A stretch of 64,000 bases of DNA from Streptococcus sp. (GTDB lineage Bacteria > Bacillota > Bacilli > Lactobacillales > Streptococcaceae), in assembly GCF_041802885.1 (NCBI RefSeq), contig NZ_JBHCHN010000021.1:1061-65060 (forward strand), in the 5' to 3' direction. How positions within the stretch are numbered: position 1 is the first letter of the stretch; the number at the start of each line of letters is the position of its first letter. The position numbers were made by a program, and so were the translations under genes. Below the pieces are notes generated by a model, which saw only the letters and a program-made list of their open reading frames with translations, had not been told where the DNA came from and did not search any database. Below are positions 4,701 through 61,001 of this stretch, piece after piece.

Positions 4701-5526
4701 AACAGTGGTAAACATCCAAGGACTGGAAAAATATTATGGGAAGCATTTGGCAGTCAGCAACCTGACCCTGTCTGTTCAGAAAGGGGAGATTTTTGGTTTT
4801 TTGGGAGCCAATGGGGCTGGCAAATCAACGGTCATTCGTTGTCTTTTGGGTCTTATCAAGAAAAGCAGGGGAGAAATGACTCTCTTTGCGGGGAAATATG
4901 ATAGCCTGACTGAAAAACTAGCTCACATCGGCTACCTGCCCTCTGAATCGCAATTTTACCCAGATATGACCGTCAAGGAAATCATTGCTTTAGCAGCAAG
5001 GGCCAGGAAAAAAGATTGCAGGGCAGAAGCCGAGCGGATTTGTCAAATCTTAGAAGTTCCAGTCGAAAAGAAAATCAAGGATTTATCCCTGGGCAATCGC
5101 AAGAAGGTCAGCATTGTCTGCGCCCTCCAGCACCAGCCAGAACTCTTGATTTTGGATGAGCCGACATCTGGCTTAGACCCTCTCATGCAGGAGCGCTTTT
5201 TCAAGCTGATTAAAGAGGCTTGTGCAGCTGGGGCCACCTGCTTCTTGTCTTCCCACAATCTAGCAGAAGTCAAAAACTACTGTGACCGGGCAGCCATCAT
5301 CAGAGAAGGTCAGCTCTTAACCATCGATACGATTGAAAATTTGACCCGCAGCCAAACCAAGCGGGTCACCATCTGGAAGGACGGTCAGGAAGAACACTTT
5401 AACTTTGAAGGGACCAGTTTGGAGCTGTTGGCCCATTTACAGGACTTGCAGCCTTCTGATTTCTTGGTAGAAGAGCCCTCGCTAGAAGAACTCTTCTTAC
5501 ACTATTATGAGGAGGTGGAAGCATGA
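4693..5526 (+). CDS. ABC transporter ATP-binding protein (exporter type)
   Basis: Walker A GANGAGKS, LSLGN signature, LILDEPTSGLDP. Confidence 0.93.
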   Translation: MGETVVNIQGLEKYYGKHLAVSNLTLSVQKGEIFGFLGANGAGKSTVIRCLLGLIKKSRGEMTLFAGKYDSLTEKLAHIGYLPSESQFYPDMTVKEIIALAARARKKDCRAEAERICQILEVPVEKKIKDLSLGNRKKVSIVCALQHQPELLILDEPTSGLDPLMQERFFKLIKEACAAGATCFLSSHNLAEVKNYCDRAAIIREGQLLTIDTIENLTRSQTKRVTIWKDGQEEHFNFEGTSLELLAHLQDLQPSDFLVEEPSLEELFLHYYEEVEA

Positions 5527-6311
5527 TACTTCTGTTGCACGAAATAAAAGAAAATCGTAAAAGCTTGCTCATCTGGTCTTTAACCGTAGGTTTGATTTGT
5601 TATGGCTGTATCTTACTGTATAAGAGTGTATCAGGACAGCTGGCAGAAGTAGCTGACCTCTATGCCAATATGGGAGAGATGACCAAGGCTCTGGGCATGG
5701 ACAAGGTTAGTTTAGCGACTCTAGATGGCTATTATGCCACCCAAATCGCCCTCATGTTTGGCTTGGGGGCAGGCATGTTTGCGGCCATGTTGGGGGTTAA
5801 CAGCCTGTCCAAGGAAGAAGAAGGGCATACCAGTGAATTTCTCTATACCTTGCCTTATCAACGCAAGACCATCTTCTTGTGGAAATTTCTCAGTGTCCTG
5901 GTCCTCATCCTATCATTCAATGCGATTGCTGTTGGACTTAGTTTGTTAGGAATCTGGCAGTTGGATATGACCTTTTCCTACCAGGCCATGTTCCATTATC
6001 ACTTGCTTGCCCTCCTTATGCAGCTTGAATTAGCCAGCCTAGGCTTTCTGATCTCTGCTATCAGTTCTAAGAAACAGACAGGACTGGCTATGGGCTTGGT
6101 GTTATTGACTTACAGCCTGGATATGATGGTGCGTATTGTACCGGACTTGGACAAACTCAAGTACCTGACCCCTTATTACTATGCTAGTGGAGCGGATGTC
6201 TTTAGTCAGGTGGACTTGGATATACTTTTGCTCATCAAAGCGGGAGTTGTGATTCTTGCCTCACTTCTCTTCTCGGTGATGATCCTGGAGAAAAAAGATT
6301 TGAAGGCTTGA
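5523..6311 (+). CDS. ABC-2 type transporter permease
   Basis: Six TM segments, SKEEEGHTSEFLYTLP motif; coupled to the ATPase. Confidence 0.88.
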   Translation: MILLLHEIKENRKSLLIWSLTVGLICYGCILLYKSVSGQLAEVADLYANMGEMTKALGMDKVSLATLDGYYATQIALMFGLGAGMFAAMLGVNSLSKEEEGHTSEFLYTLPYQRKTIFLWKFLSVLVLILSFNAIAVGLSLLGIWQLDMTFSYQAMFHYHLLALLMQLELASLGFLISAISSKKQTGLAMGLVLLTYSLDMMVRIVPDLDKLKYLTPYYYASGADVFSQVDLDILLLIKAGVVILASLLFSVMILEKKDLKA

Positions 6312-6353
6312 TGGAATAAACAAAAAAGTATGGAGTTTTGGCTCCATACTTTT

Positions 6354-7190
6354 TTATCGGTGTTCTCGTCGCCATTTGGTGGGGGATTGTTGGTAGTGGC
6401 GTTTGAAGGCTGTTGAAAAATTAAACTGATTGGAATAACCGACAGACTCTGCGATTTCTTGCAGGGTTTTATTGGTATTTTTCAATAACTCACAGGCTTC
6501 GCTGAGGCGGTACTGGATGATGAATTGCTGGGGGGAGATATTAACTTGCTCCTTGAAGAGACGGCTGAAGTAGTGGCGGTTGAGATTGCACTGCTGGGCC
6601 AAGTCATCGACTGAAATAGGTTTTTCAAAATTTCGCTCAATGAAGTTCAGCGCTTCGCGGATATAAAACTCTTTTATTTCATCGTGTTTACTGGTGCGAT
6701 GGTTCAGTGATTCATCAATTAAGGCGGAGATGAAAAGGTAGAGATGACCGATGATTTCAGCACTCTTTGACTGATAATTTTCGAGGATTGCCATCAATTC
6801 TTTGTAGACTGGGCTCAGTGCAGCAGGACTTTTTTGGGAAAAGATAGGTTGTTGGCGGGATAGACCAGCCTGTCTTAAAAAATGTTCGGTCTTTAAACCA
6901 TCAAACTCAACCCAGATATAGGTCCAAGGGTCTTTCTCATCTGCCTCATAGCTGCAGATCATATTGGGAGAGATAAGGAAGCCTTGACCGGCAGTCAGCC
7001 GATGGACACGCTGTCCCTGTGTGTCATAAAAATGTCCTGAACCAGAAACGATATAGTGAAAGAGATAGTGCTGTTTGGATGTTGGTCCGAAAGAATGAAG
7101 AGGAAGACATTCTTCCATTCCAAATTGAATGGGATAAAAATCCATATAGGACCGGTTATTAAAAACATGAAACTCCATCTTATTTGCCAT
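6354..7190 (-). CDS. AraC/MsmR family transcriptional regulator
   Basis: N-terminal cupin (HYLFHYIVSGSG) and C-terminal AraC HTH (IAESVGYSNQFNFSTAFKR); divergent from the sugar ABC genes. Confidence 0.9.
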   Translation of the reverse strand: MANKMEFHVFNNRSYMDFYPIQFGMEECLPLHSFGPTSKQHYLFHYIVSGSGHFYDTQGQRVHRLTAGQGFLISPNMICSYEADEKDPWTYIWVEFDGLKTEHFLRQAGLSRQQPIFSQKSPAALSPVYKELMAILENYQSKSAEIIGHLYLFISALIDESLNHRTSKHDEIKEFYIREALNFIERNFEKPISVDDLAQQCNLNRHYFSRLFKEQVNISPQQFIIQYRLSEACELLKNTNKTLQEIAESVGYSNQFNFSTAFKRHYQQSPTKWRREHR

Positions 7191-58425: not shown

Positions 58426-58473
58426 AAAAAGCCTATTGCATCAAGCTTTCTAGCTTGTGCAGTAGGCTTTTTT
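58426..58473 (+). terminator. hup terminator hairpin
   Basis: AAAAAGCCTATTGCA...TGCAGTAGGCTTTTTT. Confidence 0.85.
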
Positions 58474-58477
58474 GTTG

Positions 58478-58499
58478 TTTTTGGGGCATTTTTGGGGCA
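58478..58499. repeat. Tandem 11-bp direct repeat TTTTTGGGGCA x2 (att arm-site-like)
   Basis: Perfect tandem repeat directly after the hup terminator. Confidence 0.6.
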
Positions 58500-58646
58500 T
58501 AAAATCAGTAGTTTTCCATGATGTCTGTGGCGTTGGATTTTGACTTTCGATCTGTTTTGGTCAACTCCAAGGGTCATTCTCAAAATTGAGCCAGTCACCC
58601 TTTTCTATGCTATAATATATAAAAATAAGTTAGGAAGTGTGTGCAT

Positions 58647-59372
58647 ATGTCCCAGGAAGAGTTTCTCAAGGTCTTCAATGATTTGGAGCAGACGCTGCAG
58701 AACAAATACGATACGACGGAGACCATTTATGATTTGTTGGAGCGGGAGAAGAATGCGGTAGAAAATAATCCAACCAAGGCCAATTGGGAAATCTTGGATA
58801 TTGCTAGGCGTCTCCGCAATATTCTGGCCCACGAAACTAGGACGACCTTGCCAGTGGTGGCGACACCCTCCCAGCAAATCATTGATGTACTAAAAAAAGT
58901 GACCCATGACTACCAACATCCCAAGACCCTGGGCGATTTTTTGGCAGAAGGGGAGCGGGAGAAGATTTTATCCTTCCAGCTTCAGGACCAGCTGACGGAA
59001 GTTTTGAAGGCTATTCATGAAAAACATTTTAACCAGTTTCCAGTCTTTGATGAGGCGGGCTATGCTGGCCTGATTTCCAACAATGGGATTGCCAGTTGGT
59101 TGGCGGCCTTGAGCGAGCAGGGTAGGTCTGTCGGTCTGGATTTGACTGGGGTCAGGATTTCTGAAATCTTGCCTTTTGAGGAAAATGGCGATACGGTCAT
59201 CAGACTTTCTAAGGACACCAGCCTCTTTGAGACCCTTCATCATTTTACAGGAAGCAAGGTAAGGCTGGTTCTGGTCTGCCAGTCAAAGGACCTGTCCATT
59301 CAAAGACCAGCAGATATTGCTGGAATCATTACCAAATCGGATCTTGGCCAGATGGTTAAGGACCTGCGCTAA
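58647..59372 (+). CDS. CBS-pair protein with N-terminal HEPN-like domain
   Basis: N-terminal EEFLKVFNDLE and RNILAH (58815-58832); CBS motifs FNQFPVFD..GLIS and IAGIITKSDL; own TGCTATAAT promoter (58608-58616). Confidence 0.8.
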   Translation: MSQEEFLKVFNDLEQTLQNKYDTTETIYDLLEREKNAVENNPTKANWEILDIARRLRNILAHETRTTLPVVATPSQQIIDVLKKVTHDYQHPKTLGDFLAEGEREKILSFQLQDQLTEVLKAIHEKHFNQFPVFDEAGYAGLISNNGIASWLAALSEQGRSVGLDLTGVRISEILPFEENGDTVIRLSKDTSLFETLHHFTGSKVRLVLVCQSKDLSIQRPADIAGIITKSDLGQMVKDLR

Positions 59373-59387
59373 ATCCATTTCCAAAGT

Positions 59388-59418
59388 AAAATGCCTGACC
59401 TAGGTCAAGCATTTTTTT
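59388..59418. terminator. Bidirectional terminator between convergent genes
   Basis: AAAATGCCTGACCTAGGTCAAGCATTTTTTT. Confidence 0.75.
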
Positions 59419-59421
59419 CTT

Positions 59422-60840
59422 TTAGTCGGACAAGTCTTGGCCATTGCTAGCAATGACTTTCTTGTACCAGTAGAAGGAATCCTTGCGGTAGCGTTTGAGG
59501 GTCTTGAGGTCAAAGTCGTCGCGGTCAACGTAGATGAAGCCGTAGCGTTTCTTGATACCCTCGTGGGTGGAAATGAGGTCAATGGCAGACCATGGATTGT
59601 AGCCCATCATCTCCACTCCATCTGTGATGGCCAAATGGATTTGCTCGATGTGGTGGCGGAGGTAGTCTATGCGGTAAGGGTCGTGGACTTTGCTATCCTC
59701 TGTTAGAGTATCATAAGCTCCTAAGCCATTTTCCGTGATGAGAATCGGTAGGCGGTAGCGGCTATAAATCTCTCTGACCGTTGCGCGGAAGCCGATAGGG
59801 TCAATCTCCCAGCCAAATTCGGTCTTGACCAGGTTGGGATTTGGAACGCTTCTGGCGATACCTGGGAAGGTTTGGCGGGACTGCTGGTCTCCAACCACAC
59901 CGGCCTGATCCTCTTCAGTAGAGGCTTCGACGGTCGCGGTATTGTAGTAGTTGATTCCAAGGAAGTCTGGCTTAGCAGCCTTCATGATGGCTAAGTCTTC
60001 GGCGGTAACCTGAGGAGTAGCATCGTTTTCTTCCAGGTAGGACCAGACAAGGTTGTTGTAAACCCCGTAAACTGCTGCGTCCAGATAGAGCCAGTTGCGG
60101 ATAGCGTTAAAGTTTTGCGAAGCAATCACATCTTCTGGCTTAGAGGAAGCGGCATAGACTAGGGCGATATTGGGAGCTGGGCCAATCTTGGCCTGCGGCA
60201 GCATTTGATGGCAAATCTGCATGGCCTTGGCTTGGGCAACCAGCTGATGGTGGTTTTGTTGGTAAATTTCCTTGGTCAGATTGGTGGTGCCTTCTGGAAC
60301 ATGGAGGGTACCGATAATGGGACCAACCAGGGTCAGCATGTTTTGTTCATTGATGGTTAACCAATACTTGACCCGGTCGCCGAAGTTTTCAAAAAGAACA
60401 GTGGCAAATTCTGCGAACCAGTCGATGGATTCCCGTTTGGACCAAGAGCCACGCTCATCCAGAGCAGCTGGCATGTCGAAGTGGAACATGGTCACGATGG
60501 GCTCGATGCCGTATTTCAAGCACTCGTCAATCAGGTTATTGTAAAAGGCGATTCCTTGAGGGTTGACTGCTCCAGTGCCTTCTGGCAAAATACGAGACCA
60601 GGAGATGGAGAAGCGGTAGGATTTGAAGCCCATTTCAGCCATCAGGGTGATGTCTTCCTTGTAGCGGTGGTAGTGGTCAACAGAGACTGAAAGATCTGAA
60701 GTTCCTTCTGGAATCTCTTTGACATCCTGGCAGGATGGCCCCTTGCCATCTTCCAAGGCAGCTCCCTCAACTTGGTAGGCTGATGAGGATGCACCCCAGA
60801 AAAAGTCATCTGGGAAGGGTTTGAGGTCTTTATGAAGCAT
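59422..60840 (-). CDS. GH1 (6-phospho-)beta-glucosidase
   Basis: FFWGASSSAYQVEG, TINEQ (acid/base), ITENG (nucleophile), KRYGFIYVD. Confidence 0.93.
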   Translation of the reverse strand: MLHKDLKPFPDDFFWGASSSAYQVEGAALEDGKGPSCQDVKEIPEGTSDLSVSVDHYHRYKEDITLMAEMGFKSYRFSISWSRILPEGTGAVNPQGIAFYNNLIDECLKYGIEPIVTMFHFDMPAALDERGSWSKRESIDWFAEFATVLFENFGDRVKYWLTINEQNMLTLVGPIIGTLHVPEGTTNLTKEIYQQNHHQLVAQAKAMQICHQMLPQAKIGPAPNIALVYAASSKPEDVIASQNFNAIRNWLYLDAAVYGVYNNLVWSYLEENDATPQVTAEDLAIMKAAKPDFLGINYYNTATVEASTEEDQAGVVGDQQSRQTFPGIARSVPNPNLVKTEFGWEIDPIGFRATVREIYSRYRLPILITENGLGAYDTLTEDSKVHDPYRIDYLRHHIEQIHLAITDGVEMMGYNPWSAIDLISTHEGIKKRYGFIYVDRDDFDLKTLKRYRKDSFYWYKKVIASNGQDLSD

Positions 60841-61001
60841 AGGATTCTCCTTTTTTATTAGATTTACAGGCCAGGGGCCTGTTTGCATTCTTATTTAATA
60901 GTATACTAGCGGATAATGGGGGACGCCAATGATATAAACCGCATTCCTGGTATTATCCTCTGATGTTCTTTGCTTTTCCTCCGAAGTTGGCTAGAGATTC
61001 T

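What the first reader, a model, noticed from the sequence alone, without database searches (positions are those of the whole stretch)
58647..59372. Stand-alone HEPN-CBS fusion: candidate adenine-nucleotide-sensing RNase at a phage-integration hotspot
Seen: a ~95-aa helical N-terminal region with F-x-x-x-F-N-x-L-E and R-N-I-L-A-H (R57/H62; 58815-58832), followed by a CBS pair. It has its own promoter and terminator, and no adjacent MNT antitoxin. Established: RxxxxH (often RN-x3-H) is the HEPN endoRNase signature used by many Abi, toxin and CRISPR effectors; CBS/Bateman modules bind AMP, ATP, SAM or c-di-AMP and drive allosteric change; HEPN active sites form on dimerisation. Inference: a one-component sensor-effector that cleaves RNA on a change in adenylate or second-messenger level, for example during phage infection. 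Its position right after the hup att-like remnant fits defence cargo. I believe HEPN-CBS fusions were noted in comparative genomics, but I know of no experimental characterisation.
Basis: partly seen in the sequence, partly recalled or inferred. Interest (0 to 1): 0.8.

Follow-up and report, generated by a model that had tools for sequence, protein, structure and literature searches.

The report
Nucleotide-gated HEPN RNase fused to CBS
This Streptococcus gene encodes a small protein that joins a probable RNA-cutting (HEPN) domain to a nucleotide-sensing CBS pair; a differently built relative was recently shown to defend E. coli against phage, but here the gene is a stably inherited chromosomal gene, not mobile cargo.

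Summary
Window 58647-59372 (+) encodes a 241-aa protein with a ~95-aa helical N-terminal domain carrying F6xxxF10-N11-x-L-E and R57-N58-I-L-A-H62 (58815-58832), followed by a CBS pair. R57, N58 and H62 are the only invariant columns across 97 diverse homologues.

The N-terminal domain matches the HEPN superfamily by sequence, but only below threshold. The predicted helix order fits HEPN, yet Foldseek found no significant fold match.

DS-11 of E. coli (DefensePredictor, Science 2026) is a single CBS+HEPN protein. Its phage defence is lost in R330A, H335A and Y157A mutants. The window protein is not a DS-11 member: it scores 21 bits against a cutoff of 260, the domain order is reversed, and only the CBS pairs are homologous.

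The "defence cargo at a hotspot" reading is not supported here. The gene follows hup in four Streptococcus species and in 10 of 10 contigs; a variable segment lies between hup and the gene. A family member in Enterococcus faecalis (EF1724) is a genus-core gene next to lspA-rluD. Other lineages do place the family beside restriction-modification genes or on plasmids.

Best reading: a ligand-gated HEPN RNase whose physiological role is unresolved. It is a new variant of a known kind, of moderate interest.

The parts
58426..58472 (+). Intrinsic terminator of hup (long GC-rich hairpin followed by a U-run). It isolates the target gene transcriptionally from hup.
   Evidence: -29.7 kcal/mol, z -6.6. 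Sequence read.
58479..58500 (.). Tandem 11-nt repeat TTTTGGGGCAT x2. The left junction of the strain-variable segment (58487/58488) falls inside it.
   Evidence: Sequence. L018 breakpoint. Loose end at 58488 in a wastewater contig.
58488..58603 (.). Strain-variable intergenic segment. In one genome (GCA_046327855.1, L018) it is replaced by a 2.65-kb insert carrying a DUF6414 gene and a truncated S24-peptidase gene.
58586..58616 (+). Candidate promoter: TTGAGC (58586-58591), a 19-nt spacer, then an extended -10 TGcTATAAT (58608-58616).
   Evidence: Read from the sequence. Not reported by the strict consensus scan, so this is an inference.
58632..58637 (+). Ribosome-binding site AGGAAG, 9 nt before the ATG.
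   Evidence: Sequence.
58647..59372 (+). Coding sequence of the 241-aa HEPN-CBS protein, stop codon included.
58647..58931 (+). N-terminal HEPN-like domain (aa 1-95). Helix 1 is 3-21 (F6, F10, N11). Helix 2 is 27-35. An insert spans 36-46. Helix 3 is 47-63. A loop spans 64-75 (A72, P74). Helix 4 is 76-90.
58815..58832 (+). R57-N58-I-L-A-H62, the Rx4H catalytic signature at the C-terminal end of helix 3. R, N and H are invariant in the family.
   Evidence: Position rule taken from PMC3710099.
58950..59369 (+). CBS pair (Bateman module), aa 102-241.
59028..59045 (+). CBS1 strand motif F128-N-Q-F-P-V (family consensus YSQFPV). F128 aligns with Y157 of DS-11, the residue whose alanine substitution abolishes defence.
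   Evidence: DS-11 mutant data in PMC13092281.
59322..59342 (+). CBS2 motif G226-I-I-T229-K-S-D232, the canonical G-h-h-T-x-x-D ribose-binding motif of adenosyl-ligand CBS sites. G226 and D232 are near-invariant.
   Evidence: The role of the motif comes from general knowledge of CBS domains, so its function here is inferred.
59388..59415 (.). Bidirectional terminator hairpin shared with the convergent glycoside hydrolase family 1 (GH1) gene. A U-run follows on the + strand.
   Evidence: + strand -12.1 kcal/mol (z -4.2); - strand -16.5 kcal/mol (z -4.3).

Best explanation
The gene encodes a one-polypeptide sensor-effector. It has a minimal N-terminal HEPN domain of four core helices, with the R57-N58-x3-H62 catalytic signature at the end of helix 3. 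This is fused to a C-terminal CBS pair that has one canonical adenosyl-binding site: F/Y128-x-Q-F-P in CBS1 and G226-I-I-T-x-x-D232 in CBS2.

Proposed mechanism (inferred, not shown): the protein dimerises through its Bateman modules. Binding or loss of an adenine-containing ligand changes how the two HEPN domains are juxtaposed. That switches on or off a composite, metal-independent endoRNase site that leaves 2',3'-cyclic phosphate ends.

In this Streptococcus the gene is a vertically inherited, monocistronic chromosomal gene next to hup. It is not mobile cargo. The physiological trigger could be phage infection or energy/nucleotide stress. It is not resolved, and neither is the RNA target.
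For: Shown here:
- R57, N58 and H62 are the only invariant columns across 97 homologues at 17-74% identity. RNxxxH is present in 159 of 161 family proteins.
- Scanning 90 family N-termini against Pfam, the most frequently hit families at sub-threshold level include named HEPN families: HEPN_RiboL-PSP (30 members), HepT-like (23), HEPN_Cthe2314 (9) and HEPN_Apea (9). DUF6548 (25), DUF4145 (19) and DUF3644 (8) also rank high; their HEPN status was not checked here.
- A profile search of the PDB puts the HepT toxin SO_3166 in the top three places (E 0.025-0.07). The alignment covers about 80 residues with LRNxxVH in register.
- The AlphaFold2 helix order, and the position of the motif at the end of helix 3 before a loop and helix 4, match the canonical HEPN description (PMC3710099).
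- The CBS pair is confirmed.
- Nearly all of the best 150 of the 214 family representatives found are 225-260 aa, consistent with the same two-domain architecture. The three longer listed proteins only add N-terminal extensions.
- No conserved partner gene occurs across lineages.

Precedent: DS-11 (CBS+HEPN) loses phage defence on R330A, H335A and Y157A. Its CBS pair is homologous to this family's (hhalign probability 97.4%), and Y157 aligns with F128/Y.
Against: - Foldseek with the N-terminal model alone found no significant match in the PDB or BFVD. The best HEPN hit, 1wwp, had E 9.4.
- All Pfam HEPN matches are below the gathering thresholds, and the window protein itself reaches only E 0.17 to DUF4145.
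- The Ex3[KR] acidic motif of helix 2 seen in many HEPN families is not conserved here.
- The family was collected with a profile containing the motif, so the motif's invariance is partly ascertainment.
Confidence: 0.6

Rival explanations
1. It is a dedicated anti-phage abortive-infection effector of the DS-11 type. The CBS pair senses an infection-linked change in an adenine nucleotide and unleashes the HEPN RNase to stop the cell or the phage. The gene sits at a hup-linked integration hotspot as defence cargo.
For: - DS-11 precedent.
- Family members lie next to a Type IV restriction enzyme in three Carnobacteriaceae loci.
- One member sits 10 nt after a Type III restriction-modification operon in an Erysipelotrichia MAG.
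- One member overlaps an Eco57I-like gene beside a large methyltransferase and DUF4209 on a Chlorohelix plasmid. Another sits beside HNH, MazG-like and helicase genes on a Rhodococcus conjugative plasmid.
- PADLOC scan of 87 neighbour proteins: mREase_IV x3, MTase_III x2, PDC-S07 x2.
- A recurrent junction at 58487/58488 and a 2.65-kb insert in one strain show that the hup-gene spacer accepts foreign DNA.
Against: - In the window's lineage the gene is fixed. It keeps the same position after hup in the window species, S. varani, S. minor and S. ovis, and in 10 of 10 contigs with the identical HU protein. Its neighbours are housekeeping genes.
- The E. faecalis member EF1724 is genus-core and sits directly before lspA-rluD. 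The Listeria member has the same position.
- No PADLOC model matches the family.
- No homologue was found in IMG/VR viral contigs.
- No control set was run for the neighbour scan, and the number of independent lineages is small.
Confidence: 0.25
2. It is a housekeeping or stress-response RNase. It links adenylate or second-messenger status (ATP/AMP, c-di-AMP, Ap4A, (p)ppGpp-related pools) to cleavage of a cellular RNA such as rRNA, tRNA or specific mRNAs, as a core function of some Lactobacillales.
For: - Conserved synteny and species-wide presence in the window's lineage.
- EF1724 is one of the genus-core genes that distinguish enterococci. It is scored 'Fitness Important' by Tn-seq (insertion ratio 0.02), and its stop overlaps the start of lspA, followed by rluD and pyrR.
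- Listeria shows the same arrangement before lspA-rluD.
Against: - The Tn-seq effect may be polar on the essential lspA.
- The family is patchy: the Tn-seq tables list no orthologue in S. pneumoniae or S. aureus.
- It also occurs on plasmids and beside restriction-modification systems.
- The Enterococcus clade is only about 23% identical to the window protein, so the role may differ between clades.
Confidence: 0.3
3. The N-terminal domain is not an enzyme. The protein would then be a CBS-domain regulator that binds a partner protein or nucleic acid, in the manner of DarB/CbpB or the 'predicted transcriptional regulator' label given by IMG. The RNxxxH motif would serve binding or folding.
For: - IMG names some members 'predicted transcriptional regulator'.
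- Foldseek gave no HEPN match.
- Some HEPN domains are known to be non-catalytic (PMC3710099).
Against: - No HTH or other DNA-binding family is hit.
- Non-catalytic HEPN domains typically lose the Rx4-6H motif, whereas here R, N and H are the only invariant residues of the whole protein.
Confidence: 0.12

Closest known systems
DS-11 (E. coli WP_000257686.1; NCBIfam NF053863 'CBS domain-containing anti-phage protein'; DefensePredictor, Science 2026, PMC13092281)
   Same: - Single polypeptide combining a CBS pair with a HEPN domain that carries R-N-x3-H.
- No partner gene.
- The CBS pairs are homologous (hhalign probability 97.4%, E 1e-11).
- DS-11 Y157, which is needed for defence, aligns with the family's Y and the window's F128.
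- The proposed logic is the same: an adenine-ligand-gated HEPN RNase.
   Different: - Domain order is reversed. DS-11 is N-terminal domain, then CBS pair (134-241), then HEPN (C-terminal, R330/H335). The window protein is HEPN (1-95) then CBS pair (102-241).
- DS-11 is 365 aa against 241 aa, with an extra ~120-aa N-terminal region.
- The HEPN domains align over only 17 columns around the motif (probability 17.6%).
- The window protein scores 21 bits on NF053863 (cutoff 260), while DS-11 scores 405.
- DS-11's closest listed relatives come from Proteobacteria; this family was found mainly in Bacillota.
- No defence phenotype is known for this family.
HEPN-CBS(-HD) fusions listed by Anantharaman et al. 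2013 (PMC3710099; e.g. alr3009, Pelobacter gi 118580987)
   Same: Computational recognition that HEPN domains are fused to CBS domains, with the same proposed idea that nucleotide sensing controls RNA stability.
   Different: Those examples are from cyanobacteria and proteobacteria, and some carry HD domains. I could not retrieve their sequences, so I did not test whether they belong to this 240-aa family.
HepT/MNT (DUF86) type II/VII toxin-antitoxin toxins, e.g. Shewanella SO_3166 (PDB 5yep, 6m6u, 6m6w)
   Same: Best solved-structure sequence match (E 0.025-0.07). The alignment covers about 80 residues with LRNxxVH in register. Domain size is similar. HepT-like Pfam is hit by 23 of 90 family N-termini.
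   Different: No MNT nucleotidyltransferase neighbour occurs in any locus. Control would instead come from a fused CBS pair in cis. All matches are below family thresholds.
E. faecalis EF1724 ('CBS domain-containing protein')
   Same: Same two-domain architecture and the same invariant motif (LRNAIVHE). The 234-aa protein is a member of the same family (tblastn E 2e-8). Its identity as EF1724 was established from gene length and the flanking EF1723 (lspA) and EF1725 (fhs).
   Different: Only about 23% identical to the window protein. It lies directly before lspA-rluD-pyrR rather than after hup. Only Tn-seq fitness data exist; there is no biochemical study.

Membership tests
HEPN superfamily | Rx4-6H motif with a polar residue (N/D/H) after the R, conserved across the family | tested here: met
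   R57-N58-x3-H62 are the only invariant columns in 97 members. The motif is present in 159 of 161 proteins.
HEPN superfamily | Four-helix up-down bundle with an insert between helices 2 and 3, and the motif at the end of helix 3 before the loop to helix 4 | tested here: inconclusive
   The AlphaFold2 secondary-structure order and the motif position fit (rule from PMC3710099). Foldseek with the domain alone gave no significant match in the PDB or BFVD; the HEPN entry 1wwp appears only at E 9.4.
HEPN superfamily | Profile-level sequence similarity to recognised HEPN families | tested here: inconclusive
   Every match is below threshold, but the hits converge. HEPN_RiboL-PSP (30), HepT-like (23), HEPN_Cthe2314 (9) and HEPN_Apea (9) are among the top hits of 90 members, with best E 6e-5 to 2e-3. 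DUF4145 (19) also ranks high; its HEPN status was not checked. The PDB top three are HepT toxins at E 0.025-0.07.
HEPN superfamily | Metal-independent endoRNase activity dependent on R and H | not testable with these tools
   Needs biochemistry.
CBS pair (Bateman module) | Two tandem CBS motifs that pass the Pfam threshold and adopt the Bateman fold | tested here: met
   PF00571 scores 30.6 bits against a cutoff of 24, in two stretches. Foldseek matches CBS-pair structures with probability 1.0 and target-normalised TM-score (TMt) about 0.7.
CBS pair (Bateman module) | Canonical adenosyl-ligand site (G-h-h-T/S-x-x-D plus a hydrophobic/aromatic strand) | tested here: met
   G226-I-I-T229-K-S-D232 and F128-N-Q-F-P-V are present and conserved. 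The identity of the ligand was not tested.
DS-11 anti-phage protein (NF053863) | Score at or above the curated cutoff (260 bits) of the equivalog model | tested here: not met
   The window protein scores 21 bits and other family members 21-27 bits. DS-11 itself scores 405 bits.
DS-11 anti-phage protein (NF053863) | Architecture of N-terminal domain, CBS pair, then C-terminal HEPN | tested here: not met
   The order is reversed here (HEPN then CBS) and the extra N-terminal region is absent.
DS-11 anti-phage protein (NF053863) | Protection against phage that depends on the HEPN R/H and the CBS Y157 | not testable with these tools
   Needs phage assays.
HepT-MNT toxin-antitoxin | Adjacent MNT nucleotidyltransferase antitoxin gene | tested here: not met
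   No MNT, and no partner conserved across lineages, in the window, 15 genome loci, 10 metagenome contigs or 2 plasmids.
Defence-island / mobile cargo gene | Variable presence between strains and clustering with known defence genes or mobile-element genes | tested here: not met
   For the window's lineage the gene is present at the same site in 10 of 10 contigs and in 4 species, with housekeeping neighbours. Elsewhere the feature is partly met: restriction-modification neighbours in 3 lineages and 2 plasmids.

The most novel reading that the evidence does not exclude
This ~240-aa HEPN-CBS family would be a chromosomally fixed, nucleotide-gated endoRNase of Lactobacillales and Bacillales. In this reading it couples the adenylate or second-messenger pool directly to cleavage of cellular RNA, as a bacterial counterpart of ligand-activated HEPN/KEN RNases such as RNase L. 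Core members such as E. faecalis EF1724 would contribute to fitness, and the restriction-modification-linked and plasmid-borne members would be the same switch recruited for immunity.
Probability: 0.25. Interest if true: 0.7.

Novelty: new variant of a known kind. Interest (0 to 1): 0.5.

Why it matters
Only one CBS-HEPN protein, DS-11, has any experimental support, and its ligand and RNA target are unknown.

This family is a second, independently assembled fusion. The domain order is reversed and the HEPN subfamily differs, while the CBS module is homologous. Reaching the same design twice argues that nucleotide gating of HEPN RNases by CBS pairs is a general solution.

The family is small and soluble, needs no partner, and occurs in tractable Gram-positive hosts (Enterococcus faecalis, Listeria). 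That makes it a convenient system for finding the ligand and the target.

Its presence both as a genus-core gene and beside restriction-modification systems bears on how housekeeping regulators and immune effectors exchange roles.

Tried and rejected
1. Foldseek with the whole model returned only CBS structures. With the N-terminal model alone it returned nothing significant in the PDB or BFVD.
2. Single-sequence Pfam, NCBIfam and PADLOC scans found no named family for residues 1-95.
3. I tried to enlarge the set of genomic contexts through the search for related loci. The diverse alignments A4 and A5 had no stretch conserved enough to search with. The word-indexed protein search with A4 added only a few proteins. 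Context statistics therefore rest on 15 genome loci, 10 metagenome contigs and 2 plasmids, with no matched control.
4. A viral-contig scan found no relative. The two 'phage' GenBank hits are UNVERIFIED_ORG records whose gene order is that of host chromosome, so I rejected them as evidence of phage carriage.
5. I tested whether the Listeria member is the c-di-AMP receptor CbpA. It is not: CbpA is a CBS+ACT protein (PMC10117814).
6. RNA evidence is uninformative. Only assembled contigs of wastewater and aquatic 'RNA' runs were available. Depth over hup is no higher than over its neighbours, which suggests DNA carry-over.
7. The strict promoter/terminator consensus scan found nothing at the gene. 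The signals reported here were read by eye and checked by folding.
Full report
**1. What is in the sequence**

The window carries an ORF at 58647-59372 on the + strand, 241 aa from the ATG, with an in-frame GTG two codons upstream. Homologues start MSQ/MTQ, and an AGGAAG ribosome-binding site lies 9 nt before the ATG, so the ATG is the start.

F6-x3-F10-N11-x-L13-E14 lies in the first helix. R57-N58-I-L-A-H62 is encoded at 58815-58832.

Pfam finds CBS above its threshold (30.6 bits against 24, in two stretches) and nothing else of note. NCBIfam and PADLOC give no family for the N-terminus.

An AlphaFold2 model built on 13 homologues has pLDDT 85.7. It shows helices 2-21, 27-35, 42-45, 47-63 and 76-90, followed by an alpha/beta CBS pair. 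Foldseek matches the model to many CBS-pair crystal structures with probability 1.0.

**2. Is the N-terminal domain a HEPN domain?**

I collected the family with an exhaustive HMM search using the N-terminal domain alone. It returned 214 cluster representatives at E ≤ 1e-3. Nearly all of the 150 best hits listed are 225-260 aa. The three longer listed proteins (282, 297 and 429 aa) only add N-terminal extensions, two of them low-complexity. So this domain is found essentially only fused to a CBS pair.

RNxxxH is present in 159 of 161 collected proteins. In an alignment of 97 diverse full-length members (17-74% identity to the window protein), the only invariant columns are R57, N58 and H62. 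F6, N11, P74, P92, G226 and D232 are near-invariant.

Three sequence-level results point to HEPN:
- Scanning 90 family N-termini one by one against Pfam, the most frequently matched families include named HEPN families: HEPN_RiboL-PSP (30 members, best E 1.7e-4), HepT-like (23, best 6e-5), HEPN_Cthe2314 (9) and HEPN_Apea (9). DUF4145 (19) also ranks high. DUF6548 (25) and DUF3644 (8) do too, but I did not verify their clan membership.
- The window protein itself reaches only E 0.17 to DUF4145.
- A profile of the domain searched against all PDB sequences puts the HepT toxin SO_3166 (6m6w, 6m6u, 5yep) in the first three places at E 0.025-0.07. The alignment covers about 80 residues and has LRNxxVH in register.

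Anantharaman et al. [quoted passage not shown] They add that the residue after R is usually N, D or H, and that an insert lies between helices 2 and 3 (PMC3710099). The model fits all three points.

Against this, Foldseek with a confident model of residues 1-100 alone (pLDDT 88.6, built on 90 sequences) found nothing significant in the PDB or BFVD. A HEPN structure, 1wwp, appears only at E 9.4.

I therefore treat HEPN membership as well supported by sequence and topology, but not confirmed by a fold search.

**3. What is already known**

HEPN-CBS fusions, some also carrying HD domains, were noted computationally in 2013, together with the idea that nucleotide sensing controls RNA stability.

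More importantly, the DefensePredictor study describes DS-11 (bioRxiv January 2025; Science 2026, PMC13092281). DS-11 is a one-protein system with CBS and HEPN domains that protects E. coli from phage. R330A, H335A (HEPN) and Y157A (CBS, predicted to contact adenine) abolish defence. NCBI now has an equivalog model for it, NF053863.

I took the DS-11 sequence from the paper's supplement and compared it with the window protein:
- On NF053863, DS-11 scores 405 bits. The window protein and four other family members score 0-27 bits, in the CBS region only. The cutoff is 260.
- BLASTP aligns only the CBS pairs (27% identity, E 0.002).
- Profile-profile comparison of the two families gives 97.4% probability over the CBS pair. 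DS-11 Y157 falls on the family's conserved Y, which is F128 in the window.
- The HEPN domains align over only 17 columns around the motif, at 17.6% probability.
- The order is reversed: DS-11 is N-terminal domain, CBS, HEPN, whereas the window protein is HEPN, CBS.

The window protein is therefore not a DS-11 family member. It is a second, differently assembled CBS/HEPN fusion. No PADLOC 2.0 model covers it.

**4. Genomic context**

*Window.* The order is recN, an HD-domain gene, a DegV-family gene, an SGNH/GDSL-hydrolase gene, a DUF2140 gene, hup, the target gene, a convergent glycoside hydrolase family 1 (GH1) gene, a family 4 (GH4) glycosidase gene, then a LysR-type regulator gene (ORFs; domain families; the recN and LysR labels are my reading of the translations).

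*Transcription signals.* A strong hup terminator precedes the gene (-29.7 kcal/mol). A weaker bidirectional hairpin with a U-run follows it (-12.1 and -16.5 kcal/mol, z about -4.2). A strict consensus scan reports no promoter or terminator. By eye there is an extended -10 (TGcTATAAT, 58608-58616).

*Streptococcus.* The same hup-gene adjacency holds in S. varani, S. minor and S. ovis (61-86% identity). It also holds in all 10 contigs that encode the identical HU protein. In this lineage the gene is fixed and vertically inherited.

*Variable spacer.* What varies is a 116-nt piece of the spacer (58488-58603).
- In one genome (L018) it is replaced by 2.65 kb carrying a DUF6414 gene and a truncated S24-peptidase gene.
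- The left junction (58487/58488) lies inside a tandem TTTTGGGGCAT repeat. It recurs as a loose end in a wastewater contig.
- The right junction (58604) recurs in another contig.

The HEPN-CBS gene is not the cargo.

*Other lineages.* The picture is mixed.
- Three Carnobacteriaceae loci have a Type IV methyl-directed restriction enzyme as the next non-overlapping ORF in my ORF call (PADLOC E 2.5e-246).
- An Erysipelotrichia MAG has the gene 10 nt after a Type III methylase-restriction pair.
- A Chlorohelix plasmid has it overlapping an Eco57I-like gene, after a 945-aa methyltransferase and a DUF4209 protein.
- A Rhodococcus conjugative plasmid has it among HNH, MazG-like and helicase genes.
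- A PADLOC scan of 87 neighbour proteins gives mREase_IV x3, MTase_III x2 and PDC-S07 x2. No matched control was run.
- Mesobacillus, Marinilactibacillus and other Carnobacteriaceae loci are housekeeping.

*Enterococcus and Listeria.* Two GenBank 'phage' records that hit the protein are labelled UNVERIFIED_ORG and have host gene order. In Enterococcus the order is fhs, HEPN-CBS, lspA, rluD, pyrR, with the stop overlapping the lspA start. In Listeria it is HEPN-CBS, lspA, rluD.

Gene lengths and flanking names identify the Enterococcus gene as EF1724: 704 nt, between EF1723 (lspA) and EF1725 (fhs). A Tn-seq study lists EF1724 as a CBS-domain protein that is among the genus-core genes distinguishing enterococci. 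It scores EF1724 'Fitness Important', with an insertion ratio of 0.02 (PMC7701990). A polar effect on the essential lspA could explain that score.

No MNT gene, and no other partner conserved across lineages, is present anywhere.

**5. Mechanism**

*Shown.* A CBS pair with a conserved canonical adenosyl site (F/Y128-x-Q-F-P and G226-I-I-T-x-x-D232). A fused helical domain whose only invariant residues form the HEPN catalytic signature. A fixed two-domain architecture. No partner gene.

*Inferred from established knowledge of the two domain families.* HEPN active sites are composite and form on dimerisation. Bateman modules dimerise and change conformation on binding adenine nucleotides. Ligand occupancy would then set the geometry of the two HEPN domains and gate a metal-independent endoRNase. 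DS-11 gives experimental precedent for the dependence on both the HEPN R/H and the CBS aromatic residue.

*Unknown.* The ligand, the direction of control (activation or inhibition), the RNA target and the physiological trigger.

I put 0.6 on the molecular mechanism. On the biological role I cannot separate a stress or housekeeping function (favoured by fixation in Streptococcus and core status in Enterococcus and Listeria) from immunity (favoured by DS-11 and by the restriction-modification and plasmid contexts). The family may contain both.

**6. Verdict**

Novelty: a new variant of a known kind. It is a reversed-order CBS/HEPN fusion from an uncharacterised family of roughly 200 clusters, found mainly in Bacillota.

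Interest: 0.5. It is kept moderate because the family is an independent instance of the same design, includes a genus-core enterococcal gene with a fitness signal, and is easy to test.

Noticed in passing
L018 4348-6999 (GCA_046327855.1), replacing window 58488-58603: One strain carries a 2.65-kb insert between hup and the HEPN-CBS gene. It holds a DUF6414 protein (295 aa), a truncated S24 peptidase (84 aa, LexA/CI-like C-terminus) and a 59-aa ORF. None of them hits PADLOC. It looks like a remnant of a mobile element.
   Followed up: partly
window 58479-58500: A tandem 11-nt repeat TTTTGGGGCAT x2 lies just after the hup terminator. The junction 58487/58488 inside it recurs in L018 and in a wastewater contig, which suggests a recombination or integration site.
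   Followed up: partly
window 59422-60888 (-); L016, L017, L019 and L021 at about 5266-6844: The convergent glycoside hydrolase family 1 (GH1) gene is intact in the window (488 aa). In four related contigs it is split into 305-aa and 164-aa pieces, so it is probably a pseudogene in those strains. Other strains (L020, L022, L025) have an extra 124-aa ORF between it and the HEPN-CBS gene.
   Followed up: no
L028 (OR846607.1) and L029 (OR849199.1): Two GenBank records named as Enterococcus and Listeria phages (UNVERIFIED_ORG) carry host housekeeping gene order (fhs, lspA, rluD, pyrR). They are most likely bacterial chromosomal contigs mislabelled as phage.
   Followed up: partly
L004 7187-10153, L006 7289-10225, L008 6735-9167: A roughly 980-aa protein combining PLD-nuclease, helicase and DUF3427 domains lies next to the family member in three Carnobacteriaceae. 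It matches PADLOC mREase_IV at E 2.5e-246.
   Followed up: partly
L010 990-6675: In an Erysipelotrichia MAG the HEPN-CBS gene starts 10 nt after a Type III restriction-modification pair (627-aa methylase, 1026-aa Res with RE_endonuc domain) on the same strand. It is possibly one operon.
   Followed up: partly
L027 1-7681 (Chlorohelix plasmid NZ_CP128403.1): A DUF4209 protein, a 945-aa DNA methyltransferase, two hypothetical proteins and an Eco57I-like protein precede the family member and overlap its start. This looks like an uncharacterised restriction-modification or defence-like cassette.
   Followed up: no
Pfam DUF6548 (PF20185) against family N-termini: 25 of 90 family N-termini hit DUF6548 (best E 1.6e-5), as often as they hit the named HEPN families. 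DUF6548 may be an unrecognised HEPN family.
   Followed up: no
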